NCBI RefSeq assembly: GCF_963676685.1
Contig: NC_092348.1
Span: 96,534,001-96,598,000 of the forward strand
DNA from: Mytilus edulis
Taxonomy: Eukaryota
Length of the DNA stretch: 64,000 nt
Direction of reading: 5' to 3'
Of the stretch, positions 18,001 to 24,000 are shown one piece after another; position 1 is the first letter of the stretch, and every line of letters begins with the position of its first letter. A program made the position numbers.

Positions 18001-21000
18001 ATTTGTCTTTTTTTATCGTGCTTAGTTTGGTTTCTACCACAGGTTTTGTGTAATTACATTTCTATTTATAGGAGACTTGAAAAGAACGATATTGCAAAAG
18101 TTCCACATGGTTACTTTGACAAACTAACAGAATTAACATATTTGTAAGGTCATTTATAGTCACCCTTTATCAATTTTTTTTTAGATACACATGGATTAGA
18201 AATTGGGACCTCAGATTTGTGTTTCTTCTCCATGAGACTCGTCAGTGGCGATCGAATCAAAACAAGACGTTGGAAAGATAATTCATTGAAAAAAGTAAAA
18301 ACACAGGGAGAACCAAAAATCTTGAAAAATTATAAAAAATACGGCTGAAATTAAAAAAGACGTTTGCTGCTTAGCTTATATGTTTCCCTTTTTGGTAAAA
18401 GAGTTCGTCTATAGGTTGACTATCAGTCCTCCAAGGTCGACTGTTATTGGTTTAATTTCAAATTGAATAACACATGTGTCTAATACATACCAAGTTCAAT
18501 AATGGATACAAATTTCGTATTCGTCTAAGGCAAAGTTATCCGTAAACGGTTGCGTGTTTTCTTTGTTATAAACGTTTCAGTTTGTTTTTTCTTCATTTTT
18601 TAATGTCGGGCCTTGTTTAGATTGCTATGCAATAATTGACTTTGCTCGTTGTTGAAGGCCAAACGGTGACGTCAATGTTATTTGGTCTCTGGTAGAAATT
18701 TGTCTTCTTGACAATCATATCACATCTCCCTACTTTTATAATAATTTGTGGGAAGGCGAAAATAGGATTTCAGAAAATAAGATGGAGCAGCTCAAATTGT
18801 TGTCATGATTGTAAAATCTTAAGAATTAAAATTTCAAACATCTGTGAAGAAGGGGCATGATATAAGGTTTTTACTATGTTGTGGTTCTTATCAATCATCT
18901 ATGAACTAGGGTATGATATAAGGTTTTTACTACGTTGTTTTTCTTATCTATGAGTTTGACTATCACTCTGGTATCAAACATCTGTGAAAAATTGATGTGA
19001 TATAAGGTTTTTACTATGTTGTGGTTATTATCAAATCCTTTTATCAACTTTTATACGATTAACATTTTGAAGCTGAACACATTTACATATAAAGTCATAA
19101 ATATTGGCATCATCGATGTCACGGATACCATTAGACATATCTATATTTTTTACAGAAAAATAAACAACAACAAAATAGCTGTGCTGCCCGAGGGACTATT
19201 TGACAACGCAGTTAACCTAGTAGAAGTGTAAGTAAGCTAAACTTTGGTCAAAGATTTTATTGGGAAAAAAAAGTTATAAAGGATTTCTTAGAACCCTTTG
19301 TCTCGCCTGCGCTGGCTTTCGTCAGTGGTAGTATTTAATGTTGACATATTAAAACTCTGTACATAAACTTAGTTTGAACGCGACATTATGAGGTACTACT
19401 GTACATAACCTTTAGTTTATGCTAGAGTGATATAAGTTATCTTAATGTTGTTTTTGAGTGTTCTCAGATTAATAATGATATTAAAAATATTTATTTTGAC
19501 AGAAACTTCAACTACAACCTCCTTACAGAAATACCGGATGGACTGTTTAGTAACATGCCAAAATTAAATTGGTTGTAAGTAGGGTTTTTACAAATCATAT
19601 TCACACTGGTTTTAACTTTTTCGTGTATTTTAGTTTATCAATCTTAATTCACATACAGTACGGATGCCACATTGGGAGAAGGAGCTACTAAACCGTCTGT
19701 AGCATTATCATTGATAACCTATTTATTTGCATCATAAATTTTCATAGACTTTATATTTTTCGTAATGATAGAAATTTGTTAATTGTGTTTGTCATTAAAA
19801 TAAACAAATGTATTACATATACAGAGATTTATTATTATAGGAAACTGTATGGTTTTGTCCTACAAAATAGACATCAAAGTTACTTGATTAGAATTTATAA
19901 TTTTTAATAATTTTCTTTGTCATTTTTAACTCAGAAGTCTCTATAAATGAATCCATGTGACTGTTGTTCCGTTACTAGTATTTGATTAACATTTATAAAC
20001 ATAGTCATTTCTATGTCAGATTTGTTGAAGGAAATCCATTAGACTGTAGTTGTCCAGTAGAGAAGTTCCGAACTTGGCTATTATCTCTAGACCAATCCAT
20101 CACTGTTGATGCTGAGTGTGAGACTGGAGAGAAGGTAGTCGATATAGCTGGGGCTTCGTTCGATGTCTGTATTGGTAAGGGGTTACTATTTATTGTCAGC
20201 TTACACTTTTTAAAACATATTTTCTCATTCTAAACATTATTAAAAATAATATTCTTACTTTACTATAAAAAAAAAAACAACCTATTAAACTAGCAAAGCA
20301 AATCAAATAACGATTTTAAAACGATCAAAACTAATAGTTATTGAAGAAATATAATAATCATGATCAATAAAGTAGTGCATACCTCACAAAACGGGTAAAT
20401 TGAAGGGGATTTTGCGGAGGACGGAAAATAATAAAAAGGGCAAGGCAATCATGTATTTTTTCGTACATGCTAAGGACAAATAAAAACACGTATCCAAGGG
20501 TTCGTGTGTAAGGTCATTCTTTGACCTTTAATGGTAATACTATACTATTTGGATTGAGAGATGTTCCATTGGTTATCATACCACGTTTTCTTATATCTAT
20601 ATAACATAATACGCTTCGTATGTTTTGCTTTCAATAGGTGTCATTAGATGCATGGCGTATCCTATTTATAGGGCACAATACTTGTTTCATCTGGTCGAAG
20701 AAAAATTGAAGGTTTATCATTCAAAATGCAAATCAAAGACTTTACAGGTGTTACCGTGGTACCTTTTTGACATAATGTGATAACAGGTAAATAAAAGTGT
20801 AGGTTTTTTTAATCATAAATATATGTGAAAATTTAATTGTTCAAGCAAGTTTTTTCAACAGTGACTACAACTTCTACAACAACTACTACGACAACAACGA
20901 CAACAACACTTCCTCCAACAACGACAACAACAACCACTACAAGCACAACATCGATACCAACAACAGAAGGTAAGACAAAAATAGGTAGTGGTACAATAAC

Positions 21001-24000
21001 AACACCAATACCCAGATCAGAAGGTATCACAATAGTAAGTAGTGGTACAACAACAACACCAATACTCAGAGCAGAAGGTAACGCAATAGTAGGTTGTGGT
21101 ACAACAACAACAACAACAACAACAACAACACCGATAATAAAACCCACAACCGAAGTTATGAAACTATGAGGTACTGTTACAACAATAGCAATACCAACAA
21201 CAGGTGGTAAGACAATCTGAGGTACTGTAACAATAACACCACTAATACCAACAACAGGTGGTAAGACAATCAGAGGTACTGTTACAATAACAACACTTAT
21301 ACCAACAACAGGTGGTAAGACAATCAGAGGTACTGTTACAATAACAACACTTATACCAACAACAGGTGGTAAGACAATCTGAGGTACTGTAACAATAGCA
21401 CCACTAATACCAACAACAGGTGGTAAGACAATCAGAGATACTGTTACAATAACAACACTGATACCAACAACAGGTGGTAAGACAATCAGAGGTACTGTTA
21501 CAATAACACCACTAATACCAACAACAGGTGGTAAGACAATCAGAGGTACTGTTACAATAACAACACTTATACAAACAACAGGTGGTAAGACAATCAGAGG
21601 TACTGTTACAATAACACCACTAATACCAACAACAGGTGGTAAGACAATCAGAGGTACTGTTACAATAACAACACTTATACCAACAACAGGTGGTAAGACA
21701 ATCAGAGGTACTGTTACAATAACACCACCAATACCAACAACAGGTGGTAAGACAATCAGAGGTACTGTTACAATAACACCACTAATACCAACAACAGGTG
21801 GTAAGACAATCAGAGGTACTGTTACAATAACAACACTTATACAAACAACAGGTGGTAAGACAATCAGAGGTACTGTTACAATAACACCACTAATACCAAC
21901 AACAGGTGGTAAGACAATCAGAGGTACTGTTACAATAACACCACCAATACCAACAACAGGTGGTTAGACAATCAGAGGTACTGTTACAATAACAACACTT
22001 ATACCAGCAACAGGTGGTAAGACAATCAGAGGTACTGTTAAAATAACACCATCAATACCAACAACAGGTGGTAAGACAATCAGAGGTACTGTTACAATAA
22101 CAACACTTATACCAACAACAGGTGGTAAGACAATCAGAGGTACTGTTACTATAACAACACTTATACCAACAACAGGTGGTAAGACAATAAGAGGTAGTAT
22201 TACAACAACACCAATACCAAGAACAGAAGGTAAGACAATAGGAGGTACTGTTACAACAACAACACTGATACCAACAACAGAAGGTAAGACAATACGAGGC
22301 ACTATAATAACACCAACATCAATACTTACAACAGAAGGTTAGACAATAAGAGGTAGTGGTGCAACAACAACACCAATACCCATAACAGGAGGTTAGACAA
22401 TAGGAGGTACTGTAACAATAACTATACTAATACAAACAACAGGTGGTAAGACAATCAGAGGTACTGTTACAATAACAACACTTATACCAACAACAGGTGG
22501 TAAGACAATAAGAGGTAGTTCAATAATCTAGGTATGAACTATGTCTATAACCATGTTAAATTTATTACCGGTATGCCAACAAATTTAATATGTTACCATG
22601 TCAAATATCGTACCGTTAATTCAACAAACTAGTTTTGTTACCATGCTAAATATAATACCGGTAATACAACAAAGTTGGTTAGTTAGTATAATGTTTAATA
22701 TAGTACCGGTTTTTCAAACTTGGTATGTAACCATGTTATATATAGAAGCGGTAATTCAAACTTTTTATGTTACCATGTTAAACAGATTGCCGGTAATTCA
22801 ACTAACGTGGTATGTCACCATGTTAAATATAGTACCGGTAATTTAACAAACTAGGTACGTTACCATTTTAAATATAGTACCGGTAAATCAACAATCTATG
22901 TACGTTACCATGTTAAATATAGTACCGGTAAATCAACAAACTTGGTATGTTACTTTGTTAAATTTAGTACCGGTAATTTAGAAAAAAAACTTGGCACGGT
23001 TACTATGTTGGATGTAGTACCGGTAATTTAACCAAGTTGGTATGTTACCATTATATATTACCAGTAATTCAACAAACTTGGTATGTTACTTTGTTAAATA
23101 TAGTACTGGTAATTCGACATTTCATTTGAAAACTTGACCTTGTAATAACCATTAATTACTTTTTACTGTAACTTTCATGATCTCTCTGATTGTGTTGATC
23201 CTCATCGTGTTATTTTATTATTACAAATGACATTGTGTTTTTACAGTGACTTTCGTGATCTCTCTGATTTTGTTGGTCATCATTGTGCTGACCTGCATTG
23301 GTGTACTCGTCCTAAACTACAAATACAGGAATCTACTCAAAATCCAACAGGTAATTTCGTGTTAATACCATAAACAAGTATTGGATAGCAGATTTTAAAG
23401 ATGTTGTGACCGAGAAAAAACACACTTATGTCTTTCTGTAGCACAATTCCACATTCAGTAACAGACACATTTACGAATCATATACCGTATAGCGGGTTAT
23501 TTTCGCGGGGTGCAAATATTCTCTTATTTTTGTGGATAGATCAAAATTGCCACAATGAATTCCGCCAATTTAAAACGGCACATGCAAAGGTATTAATAAA
23601 AGTTTTGAAACCGCAAGAATAATAACCGCAAAAATATTTCGTATACCTTATTCAATGAAAATCGCGAATTTTACAACCTCGAAAATAACCTTCTATACAG
23701 TATATCAGAATTTAAAATTTAATTCATCAGCCTATTGAAATGTGTCATTGTCCTGTAAGTACTATGTTATAATTGCAGGATAAAGAGGGAGAATTTGACA
23801 AACCAGATGAGACCGAGGCAGAAGAGAAAGTTAACCTGACTGAATGACACAGTGTCAACTGATCACATGACTTAGAAAGTTCAAGACACGACTAAGCATT
23901 TGCAGACATTGTCCGTTGCATTTCAAGTTTATGTTGTTAATCAATTGTTGTAATTAACATTGATGAATAGCTGTAGTTTCCTTGATTTGTTTGACTAGGG

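What the first reader, a model, noticed from the sequence alone, without database searches (positions are those of the whole stretch)
20862..22520. Minisatellite built from an exon end plus its splice donor: a potential stalk-length and secretion switch for the LRR receptor
Seen: the 54-bp unit is the last codons of the Thr-stalk exon plus GTAAGA, so the intron holds dozens of phase-1 donor copies in one preserved reading frame (18-aa Thr/Pro unit). Donors at 20970, 21024 (GTATCA) and 21078 (GTAACG) precede the first stop and would give stalks of +0, +18 or +36 aa spliced in frame to the TM exon. Read-through ends at TGA 21167-21169, giving a secreted LRR-mucin form. Later donors are behind in-frame stops (21218, 21380, 21965, 22340). 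Inference: alleles that lose these stops would gain a long variable-number mucin stalk, analogous to the GPIb-alpha VNTR.
Basis: partly seen in the sequence, partly recalled or inferred. Interest (0 to 1): 0.65.

Follow-up and report, generated by a model that had tools for sequence, protein, structure and literature searches.

The report
Mussel intron minisatellite repeating a splice donor
A mussel receptor-like gene carries a 1.5-kb tandem repeat, seeded from the end of one exon plus its splice signal, that fills the following intron; it looks like neutral repeat DNA of a kind already known from several human genes, not a proven protein-length switch.

Summary
TRF finds 29 copies of a 54-bp unit at 20938-22519. 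The first monomer straddles the end of the Thr-rich exon and its AAG|GTAAGA donor at 20970 (51 of 63 columns match the array consensus). GTAAGA recurs 22 more times in phase 1.

The window is Mytilus, not human. The gene is the downstream copy of a 23.8-kb tandem duplication. I model it as 8 exons: signal peptide/LRRNT, three LRRs, LRRCT, Thr stalk, TM, short tail.

The functional reading is not supported.
- Array variants fit neutrality: 12 synonymous, 19 missense, 2 stop among 33.
- An antisense frame is more open than the exon frame.
- One stop-bearing monomer was itself copied 162 bp along.
- The two donors before the first stop are degenerate (GTATCA, GTAACG).
- The nearest proteins (P0001, P0002) carry a conserved 16-aa segment between stalk and TM.

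Junction-spanning minisatellites that repeat a donor are known in human F7, IFI6, CBS, LMNB2 and PDGF (PMC1557585). This is a new member of a known kind. Splicing and allelic variation could not be tested.

The parts
1..66 (+). End of the last exon of the upstream paralogue (copy A), including its stop codon
   Evidence: tblastn: 21 of 21 aa identical to the C-terminus of P0001, M. galloprovincialis LOC143077949. Aligned to the last exon of copy B.
14857..15068 (+). Exon 1 of copy B: start codon, hydrophobic leader, Cys-rich LRRNT-like cap. Donor CTT|GTGAGT, phase 2.
   Evidence: Sequence read. Per-exon frame check. Pfam LRRNT E=1.1e-4, 22.1 bits, below the 25.8 cut-off. No protein in the database holds this exon.
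18072..18143 (+). LRR exon, 72 nt, phase 2-2
   Evidence: No Pfam hit for the single 23-aa exon.
19156..19227 (+). LRR exon, 72 nt, phase 2-2
   Evidence: No Pfam hit for the single exon.
19503..19574 (+). LRR exon, 72 nt. It holds the Met at which the P0001 and P0002 models start.
   Evidence: Pfam LRR_8 E=0.0041, 17.3 bits, below cut-off. The 7-aa match to the P0001/P0002 N-terminus lies at 19555-19575.
20020..20174 (+). LRRCT-like exon. Donor TTG|GTAAGG, phase 1.
   Evidence: 92% identical to P0001 and 82% to P0002. The PDB matches all fall on C-terminal caps of LRR ectodomains: Slitrk1 E=0.0085, and FLRT3, GPIb-alpha, VLR and TLR8 at E 0.2-1.
20862..20969 (+). Thr-rich stalk exon, 108 nt, phase 1 at both ends, if the donor at 20970 is the one used
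   Evidence: The 36 aa are identical to P0001.
20938..21000 (+). Junction-spanning first monomer: last 32 nt of the exon, the GTAAGA donor, and the start of the intron
   Evidence: Local alignment to the majority consensus of the array: 51 of 63 columns, no gaps. TRF starts the array at 20938.
20970..21206 (+). Diverged 5' monomers: 20970-21023, 21024-21077, and an irregular 129-nt block at 21078-21206. The block holds (ACA)10 at 21101-21130, AATAAA at 21136 and the first in-frame stop at 21167-21169.
   Evidence: 43 of 54 and 40 of 54 identical to the central consensus. Stops and GT sites. AATAAA.
21207..22178 (+). Homogenised core: 18 monomers of 54 bp with 108/162-bp higher-order structure. 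Each carries GTG|GTAAGA, except GTTAGA at 21963.
   Evidence: 50-53 of 54 identical to the consensus. TRF higher-order rows. In-frame stops at 21218, 21380 and 21965.
22179..22519 (+). 3' flank monomers: five older, more diverged ones (one is 51 nt; two carry AAG|GTAAGA at 22230 and 22284; two carry GTTAGA), then one core-like monomer at 22446-22499 and a 20-nt fragment
   Evidence: 40-48 of 54 identical to the consensus for the five, 53 of 54 for 22446-22499. Stops at 22340 and 22394.
22550..23119 (+). Second, unrelated minisatellite (45/90-bp period) in the same intron
   Evidence: TRF rows. No similarity to either exon junction or to the 54-bp array beyond shuffles.
23159..23209 (+). Degenerate tandem duplicate of the acceptor plus the first ~40 nt of the TM exon. 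Its AG is changed to TG.
   Evidence: 43 of 50 identical to 23237-23286.
23247..23350 (+). Transmembrane exon. Donor CAG|GTAATT, phase 0.
   Evidence: 34 of 34 aa identical to P0001..
23779..23847 (+). Last exon: acidic tail and stop
   Evidence: A 13-bp deletion relative to copy A moves the stop forward.

Best explanation
This is a locally born intronic minisatellite. It has 29 head-to-tail copies of a 54-bp monomer, and the first copy straddles the 3' end of the Thr-rich stalk exon and its GTAAGA donor.

It sits in the downstream copy of a recently tandem-duplicated Mytilus gene for a small LRR ectodomain, Thr-rich stalk, single-pass membrane protein. The array grew by unequal exchange or replication slippage, which left a homogenised core and older monomers at both edges. 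It evolves without coding constraint.

Its long open frame in the exon phase is a by-product of a 3n period and an A/C-rich unit in which very few point changes make stops. At the RNA level I infer it behaves like the human junction-spanning minisatellites. The most upstream, best-consensus donor (20970) is used. The repeated donors stay silent or give minor, stop-containing products. It is not a regulated stalk-length or secretion switch.

Shown here: the array, its origin at the junction, the neutral substitution pattern, and the gene duplication. Inferred: which donor is used, and the silence of the copies.
For: Array and junction origin:
- TRF rows for periods 54, 108 and 162.
- The first monomer matches the consensus at 51 of 63 columns across the exon-intron boundary.

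Growth pattern: the 18 core monomers are 50-53 of 54 identical to the consensus. The two regular 5' monomers and five of the 3' monomers score 40-48 of 54.

Neutral evolution:
- Among 23 indel-free monomers there are 33 distinct variants: 12 synonymous, 19 missense, 2 stop.
- The neutral expectation is 30%, 68.5% and 1.2%.
- The binomial p for a synonymous excess is 0.275.
- The stop at 21218 recurs at 21380, exactly one 162-bp period away, with the same linked T-to-A change. So a stop-bearing monomer was copied.

The open frame is not special:
- The consensus is open in 2 of 6 frames.
- The antisense frame has 4 stops and a longest open run of 367 codons. The exon frame has 6 stops and 194 codons.
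- Only 1.2% of single changes to the consensus create a stop.

Local tendency to form repeats:
- 2171 of the 2277 intron bases (95%) are tandem DNA.
- The acceptor junction is also duplicated.
- A 33-bp x 12.9 array in the flank of copy A is single-copy in the flank of copy B.

Donor strength:
- 20970 is the only site matching 8 of 9 consensus positions that lies before any stop.
- The next two phase-1 'monomer' donors have C at +5. Six of the 7 model donors have G there.

Precedent: in F7 IVS7, IFI6, CBS, LMNB2 and PDGF, the first donor alone, or with the two nearest copies, is used (PMC1557585, abstract and Introduction read).

No coding relatives: phmmer of the 194-aa array ORF against 1.84 billion representatives gave 104 hits at E<=1e-3 and none at E<=1e-30. 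I read the sequences of 10 and scanned all 104 for the unit's motifs. Only P0040 (122 aa) carries the unit. Its N-terminus reads like another frame of the same unit, as expected for an ORF called on repeat DNA.
Against: - No transcript data could be consulted, so donor use is inferred from consensus matches and from mammalian precedent. Mussel splicing may follow different rules.
- P0001 and P0002 carry a 16-aa segment between the stalk and the TM that is conserved between two Mytilus species (15 of 16 identical). The 20970-to-23247 product would lack it. So copy B may splice differently, for example by reading into the first monomers, or it may be a degenerating copy.
- The segment aligns weakly, and in frame, to monomers 2-3: 76 and 142 of 2000 query shuffles reach the observed scores.
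- The substitution test has low power (33 variants), and shared variants may not be independent events.
- P0040 shows that a diverged version of the array exists elsewhere and was called as protein by some pipeline.
Confidence: 0.68

Rival explanations
1. One reading: an IFI6-like use of the nearest repeated donors. Donors at 20970, 21024 and 21078 would all be used, giving membrane isoforms with stalks of +0, +18 or +36 aa. Intron read-through to TGA 21167 would give a secreted form.
For: All three GTs are phase 1 and precede the first stop, so all products stay in frame with the TM exon at 23247. In human IFI6 and CBS, the two pseudo-sites nearest the authentic donor are used constitutively (PMC1557585 Introduction). 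A single AATAAA at 21136 lies 28 nt before the first stop. The relatives carry extra residues between stalk and TM, so the +0 form is not obviously the normal one.
Against: GTATCA and GTAACG match 6 and 7 of 9 consensus positions and lack the +5 G. In IFI6 and F7 the copies are identical to the authentic site. A read-through mRNA would carry a stop upstream of two exon junctions, so I expect nonsense-mediated decay (general knowledge, not tested). One AATAAA in 2.3 kb of A-rich DNA is unremarkable. No transcript evidence is available.
Confidence: 0.15
2. A decayed or partly still-coding stalk repeat. The 18-aa Thr/Pro unit is, or recently was, translated; GGT-AAG would then be Gly-Lys codons. 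The ancestral donor would lie after the segment matching the end of the 16-aa piece in the relatives, near 21093. The perfect donor at 20970 would be a newer site that has turned former coding repeats into intron.
For: That segment gives its best, in-frame alignment to 21020-21091, ending one codon before a phase-1 GT at 21093. The frame is open from 20862 to 21166. The unit is Thr/Pro-rich like the exon. P0040 shows a related array read as protein elsewhere.
Against: The alignment is weak: 76, 142 and 47 of 2000 shuffles reach the three scores. The site at 21093 is TAG|GTTGTG, 4 of 9 consensus matches. A degenerate search for the core of the 16-aa segment finds nothing in the window at up to 3 mismatches. 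The core array shows no coding constraint and carries propagated stops. P0040 switches frame within the repeat.
Confidence: 0.14
3. An assembly artefact: the array, or its length, was produced by mis-assembly of repeat reads.
For: Near-identical 54-bp monomers are hard to assemble. Copy number cannot be verified from one sequence.
Against: The array has an orderly internal structure. It has diverged edges, a homogenised core, 108/162-bp higher-order variants, and unique flanks on both sides that join two exons in a consistent phase. The window has no N. A related array exists in an independent database entry (P0040).
Confidence: 0.03

Closest known systems
Human F7 intron 7 37-bp VNTR (Borensztajn et al. 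2006, PMC1557585)
   Same: The first monomer of the minisatellite spans the exon-intron boundary, so the authentic donor is followed by repeated copies of itself in the intron.
   Different: F7 has 5-9 monomers with strictly identical pseudo-sites, and only 4 bp of each monomer is exonic. Here there are 29 monomers and about 32 nt is exonic. The two nearest copies are degenerate, while 22 more distant copies keep GTAAGA. The period is 3n, so every copy is in phase. F7 splicing was tested; here it was not.
Human IFI6 (6-16) intron 2 minisatellite, plus CBS IVS13, LMNB2 and PDGF intron 4 (as summarised in the Introduction of PMC1557585)
   Same: The donor is repeated 10-25 times by a junction-spanning minisatellite.
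   Different: Those are mammalian genes with transcript data. I read only the summary in PMC1557585, not the primary papers. Here the nearest copies are weakened and in-frame stops begin 198 nt into the intron.
GPIb-alpha macroglycopeptide VNTR (recalled from memory as a 39-bp coding repeat of 13 aa, 1-4 copies; not from any call)
   Same: An LRR ectodomain followed by a Thr/Pro-rich stalk and one TM helix, with a tandem repeat associated with the stalk.
   Different: The GPIb-alpha repeat is exonic and translated. This array lies beyond a consensus donor, holds 6 internal in-frame stops and shows no coding constraint. GPIb-alpha is only one of many marginal LRRCT matches (E 0.6-0.8), so no specific kinship is shown.
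Intron gain by tandem duplication of an AGGT-containing exon segment (Hellsten et al. 2011, PMC3265369; potato RdRp, PMC4974935; search listing and start of abstracts only)
   Same: Tandem duplication of exon-junction sequence creates or extends intronic DNA that carries functional-looking splice signals.
   Different: In that model the new intron runs from the GT of one copy to the AG of the next. Here the acceptor at 23245-46 lies outside the array, and an intron at this phase-1 position probably pre-existed.

Membership tests
Junction-spanning intronic minisatellite that repeats the 5' splice site (F7/IFI6/CBS/LMNB2/PDGF class) | A tandem array lying in the intron directly next to the donor | tested here: met
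   TRF: 20938-22519, period 54, 29.0 copies. The donor is at 20970.
Junction-spanning intronic minisatellite that repeats the 5' splice site (F7/IFI6/CBS/LMNB2/PDGF class) | The first monomer contains the exon end plus the donor | tested here: met
   51 of 63 ungapped columns match between 20938-21000 and the array consensus, across the boundary at 20969/20970.
Junction-spanning intronic minisatellite that repeats the 5' splice site (F7/IFI6/CBS/LMNB2/PDGF class) | The donor sequence is repeated in downstream monomers | tested here: met
   22 further phase-1 GTAAGA sites: 2 AAG|GTAAGA and 20 GTG|GTAAGA. The two nearest copies are degenerate, GTATCA and GTAACG.
Junction-spanning intronic minisatellite that repeats the 5' splice site (F7/IFI6/CBS/LMNB2/PDGF class) | Only the first, or the first few, donors are used in mRNA | not testable with these tools
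   No transcript or read data for eukaryotes is reachable. The annotated relatives P0001 and P0002 do not cover this gene copy.
Junction-spanning intronic minisatellite that repeats the 5' splice site (F7/IFI6/CBS/LMNB2/PDGF class) | Copy number varies between alleles (VNTR) | not testable with these tools
   Only one haplotype is in hand, and no eukaryotic DNA collection is available.
Coding mucin-stalk VNTR (GPIb-alpha type) | The repeat lies inside an exon and is read without stops | tested here: not met
   In-frame stops at 21167, 21218, 21380, 21965, 22340 and 22394, plus 22529 at the array's end. An 8-of-9 consensus donor precedes the array.
Coding mucin-stalk VNTR (GPIb-alpha type) | The units evolve under coding constraint | tested here: not met
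   12 synonymous, 19 missense and 2 stop among 33 variants, against a neutral 30%, 68.5% and 1.2%. p=0.275 for a synonymous excess. The test has low power.
Coding mucin-stalk VNTR (GPIb-alpha type) | Thr/Ser/Pro-rich unit suited to O-glycosylation | tested here: inconclusive
   The conceptual 18-aa unit has about 7 Thr and 1-2 Pro, but also Ile, Leu, Val, Gly, Lys and Arg. This is less Thr-rich than the real stalk exon. Glycosylation cannot be tested.
LRR-ectodomain type I membrane protein (LRRNT, LRRs, LRRCT, stalk, TM) | LRRNT and LRRCT cysteine caps flanking the LRRs | tested here: inconclusive
   Each exon was searched alone. LRRNT: 22.1 bits, below the 25.8 cut-off. LRR_8: 17.3 bits, below 27. 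No Pfam LRRCT hit. PDB matches fall on LRRCT regions, the best being Slitrk1 at E=0.0085. The joined model was deliberately not searched.
LRR-ectodomain type I membrane protein (LRRNT, LRRs, LRRCT, stalk, TM) | A single hydrophobic TM segment after the stalk, then a cytoplasmic tail | tested here: met
   The exon at 23247-23350 translates to a hydrophobic run of about 23 aa followed by basic residues. It is identical to the TM of P0001. No TM predictor was run.
Intron made by tandem duplication of an AGGT segment | The intron runs from the GT of one duplicate to the AG of the next | tested here: not met
   The acceptor at 23245-46 lies 726 nt beyond the array, in unrelated sequence. The acceptor has its own degenerate duplicate at 23159-23209.

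The most novel reading that the evidence does not exclude
This may be a young gene duplicate caught while its stalk is being turned from exon into intron. The conserved 16-aa juxtamembrane coding segment of the ancestral gene would have been replaced by tandem copies of the coding Thr/Pro unit, whose Gly-Lys codons (GGT-AAG) double as a perfect splice donor. On this reading the intron, now 95% tandem DNA with both of its exon junctions duplicated, grows from its own boundaries. Alleles or sister copies with stop-free arrays that encode long, variable stalks could still segregate in mussel populations.
Probability: 0.1. Interest if true: 0.6.

Novelty: new member of a known kind. Interest (0 to 1): 0.3.

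Why it matters
If the plain reading holds, this is one more example, and possibly the first noted in a mollusc, of a junction-spanning minisatellite that repeats a splice donor. My two literature searches that named Mytilus or this architecture showed no mussel case, but they cover only the held library. Such arrays are natural test beds for how the spliceosome chooses among identical 5' splice sites.

This one has an unusual layout. The authentic site is strong, the two nearest copies are weakened, and 22 strong copies lie further in, all in phase. It would separate 'first come' scanning from site strength in an invertebrate. It also shows how quickly mussel introns can fill with locally generated repeats after gene duplication. 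It is not, on present evidence, a mechanism that controls receptor form.

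Tried and rejected
- **Separate mini-exon for the 16-aa segment of P0001/P0002.** tblastn with word size 2 found only the weak in-frame match to monomers 2-3. A degenerate 24-nt pattern for its core gave 0 matches at up to 3 mismatches.
- **Homology of that segment to the monomers.** Suggestive only: 76, 142 and 47 of 2000 shuffles reach the observed scores.
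- **Second minisatellite (22550-23119) as another junction derivative.** No similarity to either junction or to the 54-bp array beyond shuffles.
- **The 376-aa antisense ORF (20833-21963) as a gene.** No Pfam family. It follows from the composition of the unit. Rejected.
- **Array ORF as a known protein repeat.** No Pfam hit. The phmmer hits other than P0040 are unrelated Gly/Thr/Val repeats: I read 10 of the 104 and motif-scanned all 104.
- **Structured RNA.** Rfam at gathering threshold gave 0 matches in the whole window.
- **Family members through exon 1.** None found.
- **Source and names of P0040, P0001 and P0002.** I did not pursue this.
- **Not attempted.**
  - The joined 8-exon protein was never assembled, searched or folded.
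The DNA of copy A and of the orthologues stayed unchecked.
  - Supplementary files of papers were not consulted.

Full report
**Origin of the window.** GC content is 29-38% throughout and there are no N. The LRRCT-like exon is 92% identical to a RefSeq protein of Mytilus galloprovincialis (LOC143077949, P0001) and 82% identical to one of M. californianus (P0002). Window bases 1-63 encode the last 21 residues of P0001 without a mismatch. This is mussel DNA, not human. I did not try to settle the species.

**The observation.** TRF reports 29.0 copies of a 54-bp unit at 20938-22519. It also reports 108- and 162-bp higher-order periods over 21168-22517, with 90% matches and no indels.

- The exon starts at 20862, after the AG at 20860-61.
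- AAG|GTAAGA is at 20970, GTATCA at 21024 and GTAACG at 21078.
- The first in-frame stop is TGA at 21167-69.
- The acceptor is at 23245-46.

A local alignment of 20900-21000 against the array's majority consensus matches 51 of 63 ungapped columns from 20938 to 21000. This covers the last 32 exon bases, the donor, and about 30 intron bases. So the first monomer does span the junction. The exon contributes only its last ~32 nt, not a whole unit: in monomer register, the last 54 exon bases match the consensus at 33 of 54.

In phase 1 there are 3 AAG|GTAAGA, 20 GTG|GTAAGA, 21 GAG|GTACTG and 20 CAG|GTGGTA sites. The in-frame stops are 21167, 21218, 21380, 21965, 22340, 22394 and 22529.

**The gene.** Reading the + strand, with per-exon frame bookkeeping, I model eight exons totalling 864 nt:

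| Exon | Coordinates | Content |
|---|---|---|
| 1 | 14857-15068 | Met, hydrophobic leader, Cys-rich cap |
| 2-4 | 18072-18143, 19156-19227, 19503-19574 | three 72-nt phase-2 exons, one LRR each |
| 5 | 20020-20174 | LRRCT-like |
| 6 | 20862-20969 | Thr stalk |
| 7 | 23247-23350 | TM |
| 8 | 23779-23847 | acidic tail |

All seven donors have GT and an A at +4. Six of the seven have G at +5.

The joined protein was never assembled, searched or folded, so there is no whole-protein domain call. Single exons give only sub-threshold Pfam matches: LRRNT at 22.1 bits against a cut-off of 25.8, and LRR_8 at 17.3 against 27. The LRRCT-like exon gives marginal PDB matches that all fall on LRRCT caps: Slitrk1 at E=0.0085, and FLRT3, GPIb-alpha, VLRs and TLR8 at E 0.2-1. 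The architecture resembles the small LRR-stalk-TM proteins. No specific kinship to GPIb-alpha is shown.

Exon 1 has no counterpart in any database protein of 124-2000 aa. P0001 and P0002 both start at a Met inside exon 4, so those models look 5'-incomplete. My exons 1-3 rest on sequence logic alone.

**A tandem gene pair.** Self-comparison shows that window 1-~8900 matches 23791-~32415 at 90-97% identity. This is a tandem segmental duplication with a period of about 23.79 kb. The array-bearing gene is the downstream copy (B). Of the upstream copy (A), only the end of the last exon lies in the window.

Relative to copy A, copy B has a 13-bp deletion that shortens the tail. A 33-bp unit that occurs once in the flank of copy B (near 25804-25840) is present 12.9 times in the flank of copy A at 2438-2863. 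So minisatellites have been born here since the duplication.

**Anatomy of the intron.** Of the 2277 bases between 20970 and 23246, 2171 (95%) are tandem DNA:
- the 54-bp array (1550 nt);
- an unrelated 45/90-bp array at 22550-23119, with no similarity to either junction;
- a degenerate duplicate of the acceptor plus the start of the TM exon at 23159-23209, 43 of 50 identical, with its AG changed to TG.

Within the 54-bp array, the 18 core monomers (21207-22178) are 50-53 of 54 identical to the consensus. The two regular 5' monomers and five of the 3' monomers score 40-48 of 54. The 5' and 3' edge monomers resemble each other, for example 45-46 of 54 to the first intronic monomer. This is the usual picture of an array homogenised in its centre.

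**Is the frame meaningful?** Four results say no.
- The consensus unit is open in two of six frames. The antisense one has fewer stops across 20862-22530 than the exon frame: 4 stops and a longest run of 367 codons, against 6 stops and 194 codons. The antisense ORF has no Pfam match.
- Only 1.2% of possible single changes to the consensus make a stop, so long open runs are expected without selection.
- Among 23 indel-free monomers, the 33 distinct variants split into 12 synonymous, 19 missense and 2 stop. Neutral expectations are 30%, 68.5% and 1.2%. There is no synonymous excess (p=0.275), and stops are if anything over-represented (p=0.06).
- The TGA at 21218 recurs at 21380, exactly one 162-bp period away, with the same neighbouring T-to-A change. 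A stop-bearing monomer was therefore copied.

The frame survives the only two length changes, a 51-nt monomer and a 129-nt irregular block with (ACA)10. Both are multiples of three in ACA tracts. I attribute this to trinucleotide slippage, which is an inference.

**What the relatives say about splicing.** P0001 and P0002 have the same stalk and TM as copy B: 36 of 36 and 34 of 34 residues for P0001. But they carry 16 further residues between stalk and TM, and 15 of the 16 are identical between the two species.

tblastn finds no separate exon for them in the window. A degenerate pattern for their core finds nothing at up to 3 mismatches. Their best match is in frame, to monomers 2-3 (21020-21091), ending one codon before a weak phase-1 GT at 21093 (TAG|GTTGTG, 4 of 9 consensus positions). 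The match is only suggestive: 76 and 142 of 2000 shuffles reach the scores, and 47 of 2000 against the consensus units.

Only the DNA of copy A or cDNA can decide, and neither was reachable.

**Is the unit translated anywhere?** phmmer of the 194-aa open stretch (21383-21964) against 1.84 billion representative proteins gave 104 hits at E<=1e-3, 20 at E<=1e-10 and none at E<=1e-30. I printed six in full and parts of four more, and motif-scanned all 104.

Only P0040 (122 aa, 63% identity over about 60 residues) carries the unit, about 3.3 copies of it. Those copies are most like the older edge monomers. Its N-terminus resembles another reading frame of the same unit (compare), and its tail has no match in the window. 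It has no Pfam family. It looks like an ORF called on a related array at another locus or in another genome. The other hits are unrelated Gly/Thr/Val repeats.

**Comparison with what is known.** The Introduction of Borensztajn et al. 2006 (PMC1557585; abstract and Introduction read) describes exactly this class: minisatellites whose first monomer spans an exon-intron boundary, so that the donor is repeated in the intron.

| Human gene | Array | Donor use reported |
|---|---|---|
| F7 intron 7 | 37 bp, 5-9 copies | only the first site |
| IFI6 (6-16) intron 2 | 25 pseudo-sites | authentic site plus the two nearest copies |
| CBS intron 13 | 15-20 repeats | authentic site plus two pseudo-sites |
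| LMNB2 | 10-15 repeats of 100 bp | only the authentic site |
| PDGF intron 4 | 16-18 repeats of 81 bp | similar to LMNB2 |

The authors show a 5'-to-3' scanning preference for the most upstream site. The mussel array is therefore a new member of a known kind.

It differs in four ways. About 32 nt of each monomer is exon-derived. The period is 3n. The two nearest copies are weakened while 22 distant ones keep GTAAGA. And it sits in an invertebrate.

The GPIb-alpha VNTR analogy fails the defining test, since that repeat (as I recall it) is exonic and translated. The tandem-duplication model of intron gain (PMC3265369 and PMC4974935; listing and start of abstracts only) does not fit either, because the acceptor lies outside the array. 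A search for Mytilus minisatellite and intron papers and one for this architecture turned up no mollusc case in the held library.

**Verdict.** The structural reading is right: exon end plus donor, repeated in phase. The functional reading, a stalk-length and secretion switch, is unsupported and on balance unlikely.

The most probable account is a neutral, recently expanded, junction-seeded minisatellite in a young gene duplicate, with the first donor used. The main open point is not the deep array but the first ~125 nt of it. Conserved relatives imply extra coding sequence between stalk and TM that this copy either lost or encodes within its first monomers.

Noticed in passing
window 1-~8900 versus 23791-~32415: A tandem segmental duplication with a period of about 23.79 kb at 90-97% identity. 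It carries two copies of the LRR-stalk-TM gene; only the last exon of the upstream copy lies in the window.
   Followed up: partly
window 2438-2863 versus ~25804-25840: A 33-bp unit is present 12.9 times in the flank of copy A but only once at the matching place in the flank of copy B. This minisatellite was born after the gene duplication.
   Followed up: partly
window 22550-23119: A second minisatellite (45/90-bp period, about 6-10 copies) in the same intron. It is unrelated to the 54-bp array or to either exon junction, and each unit holds GGTAAT- and GGTATG-like motifs.
   Followed up: partly
window 23159-23209: A degenerate tandem duplicate of the acceptor plus the start of the TM exon (43 of 50 identical), with the AG changed to TG. 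So both ends of this intron carry duplicated junction sequence.
   Followed up: yes
window 23779-23847 versus 1-66: Copy B has a 13-bp deletion between short direct repeats near the end of the last exon. It replaces the last four residues of copy A with one and moves the stop forward.
   Followed up: yes
window 20833-21963, minus strand: A 376-codon open frame, Val/Pro/Ile-rich, runs antisense to the array and the stalk exon. It has no Pfam match and is explained by the composition of the unit.
   Followed up: yes
window 21136-21141: The only AATAAA in the intron lies 28 nt upstream of the first in-frame stop. It could in principle end a read-through transcript, but a single hexamer in A-rich DNA may be chance.
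   Followed up: no
window 14857-19227 (exons 1-3): The N-terminal exons (leader, LRRNT, first LRRs) match no database protein. The RefSeq relatives P0001 and P0002 start at a Met inside exon 4 and have no signal peptide, so those models look 5'-incomplete.
   Followed up: partly
window 48570-48923 and 54886-55104: A 121-bp x 2.9 tandem repeat at 48570-48923 is 96% identical between copies, and P0001's Thr-rich stalk gave only chance-level tblastn matches to a translated frame there (E 2-5). The stretch at 54886-55104 translates to a Thr/Ser-rich segment followed by a hydrophobic TM-like run. Possibly another stalk-TM gene.
   Followed up: no
window 7499-8631, 31308-33757, 15731-16151, 57770-59071, 42738-43137: Several dispersed or tandem repeat families are present: 135/161-bp arrays, inverted AT-rich arrays, and copies inside intron 1 of the gene. 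They are typical of repeat-rich mussel DNA.
   Followed up: no
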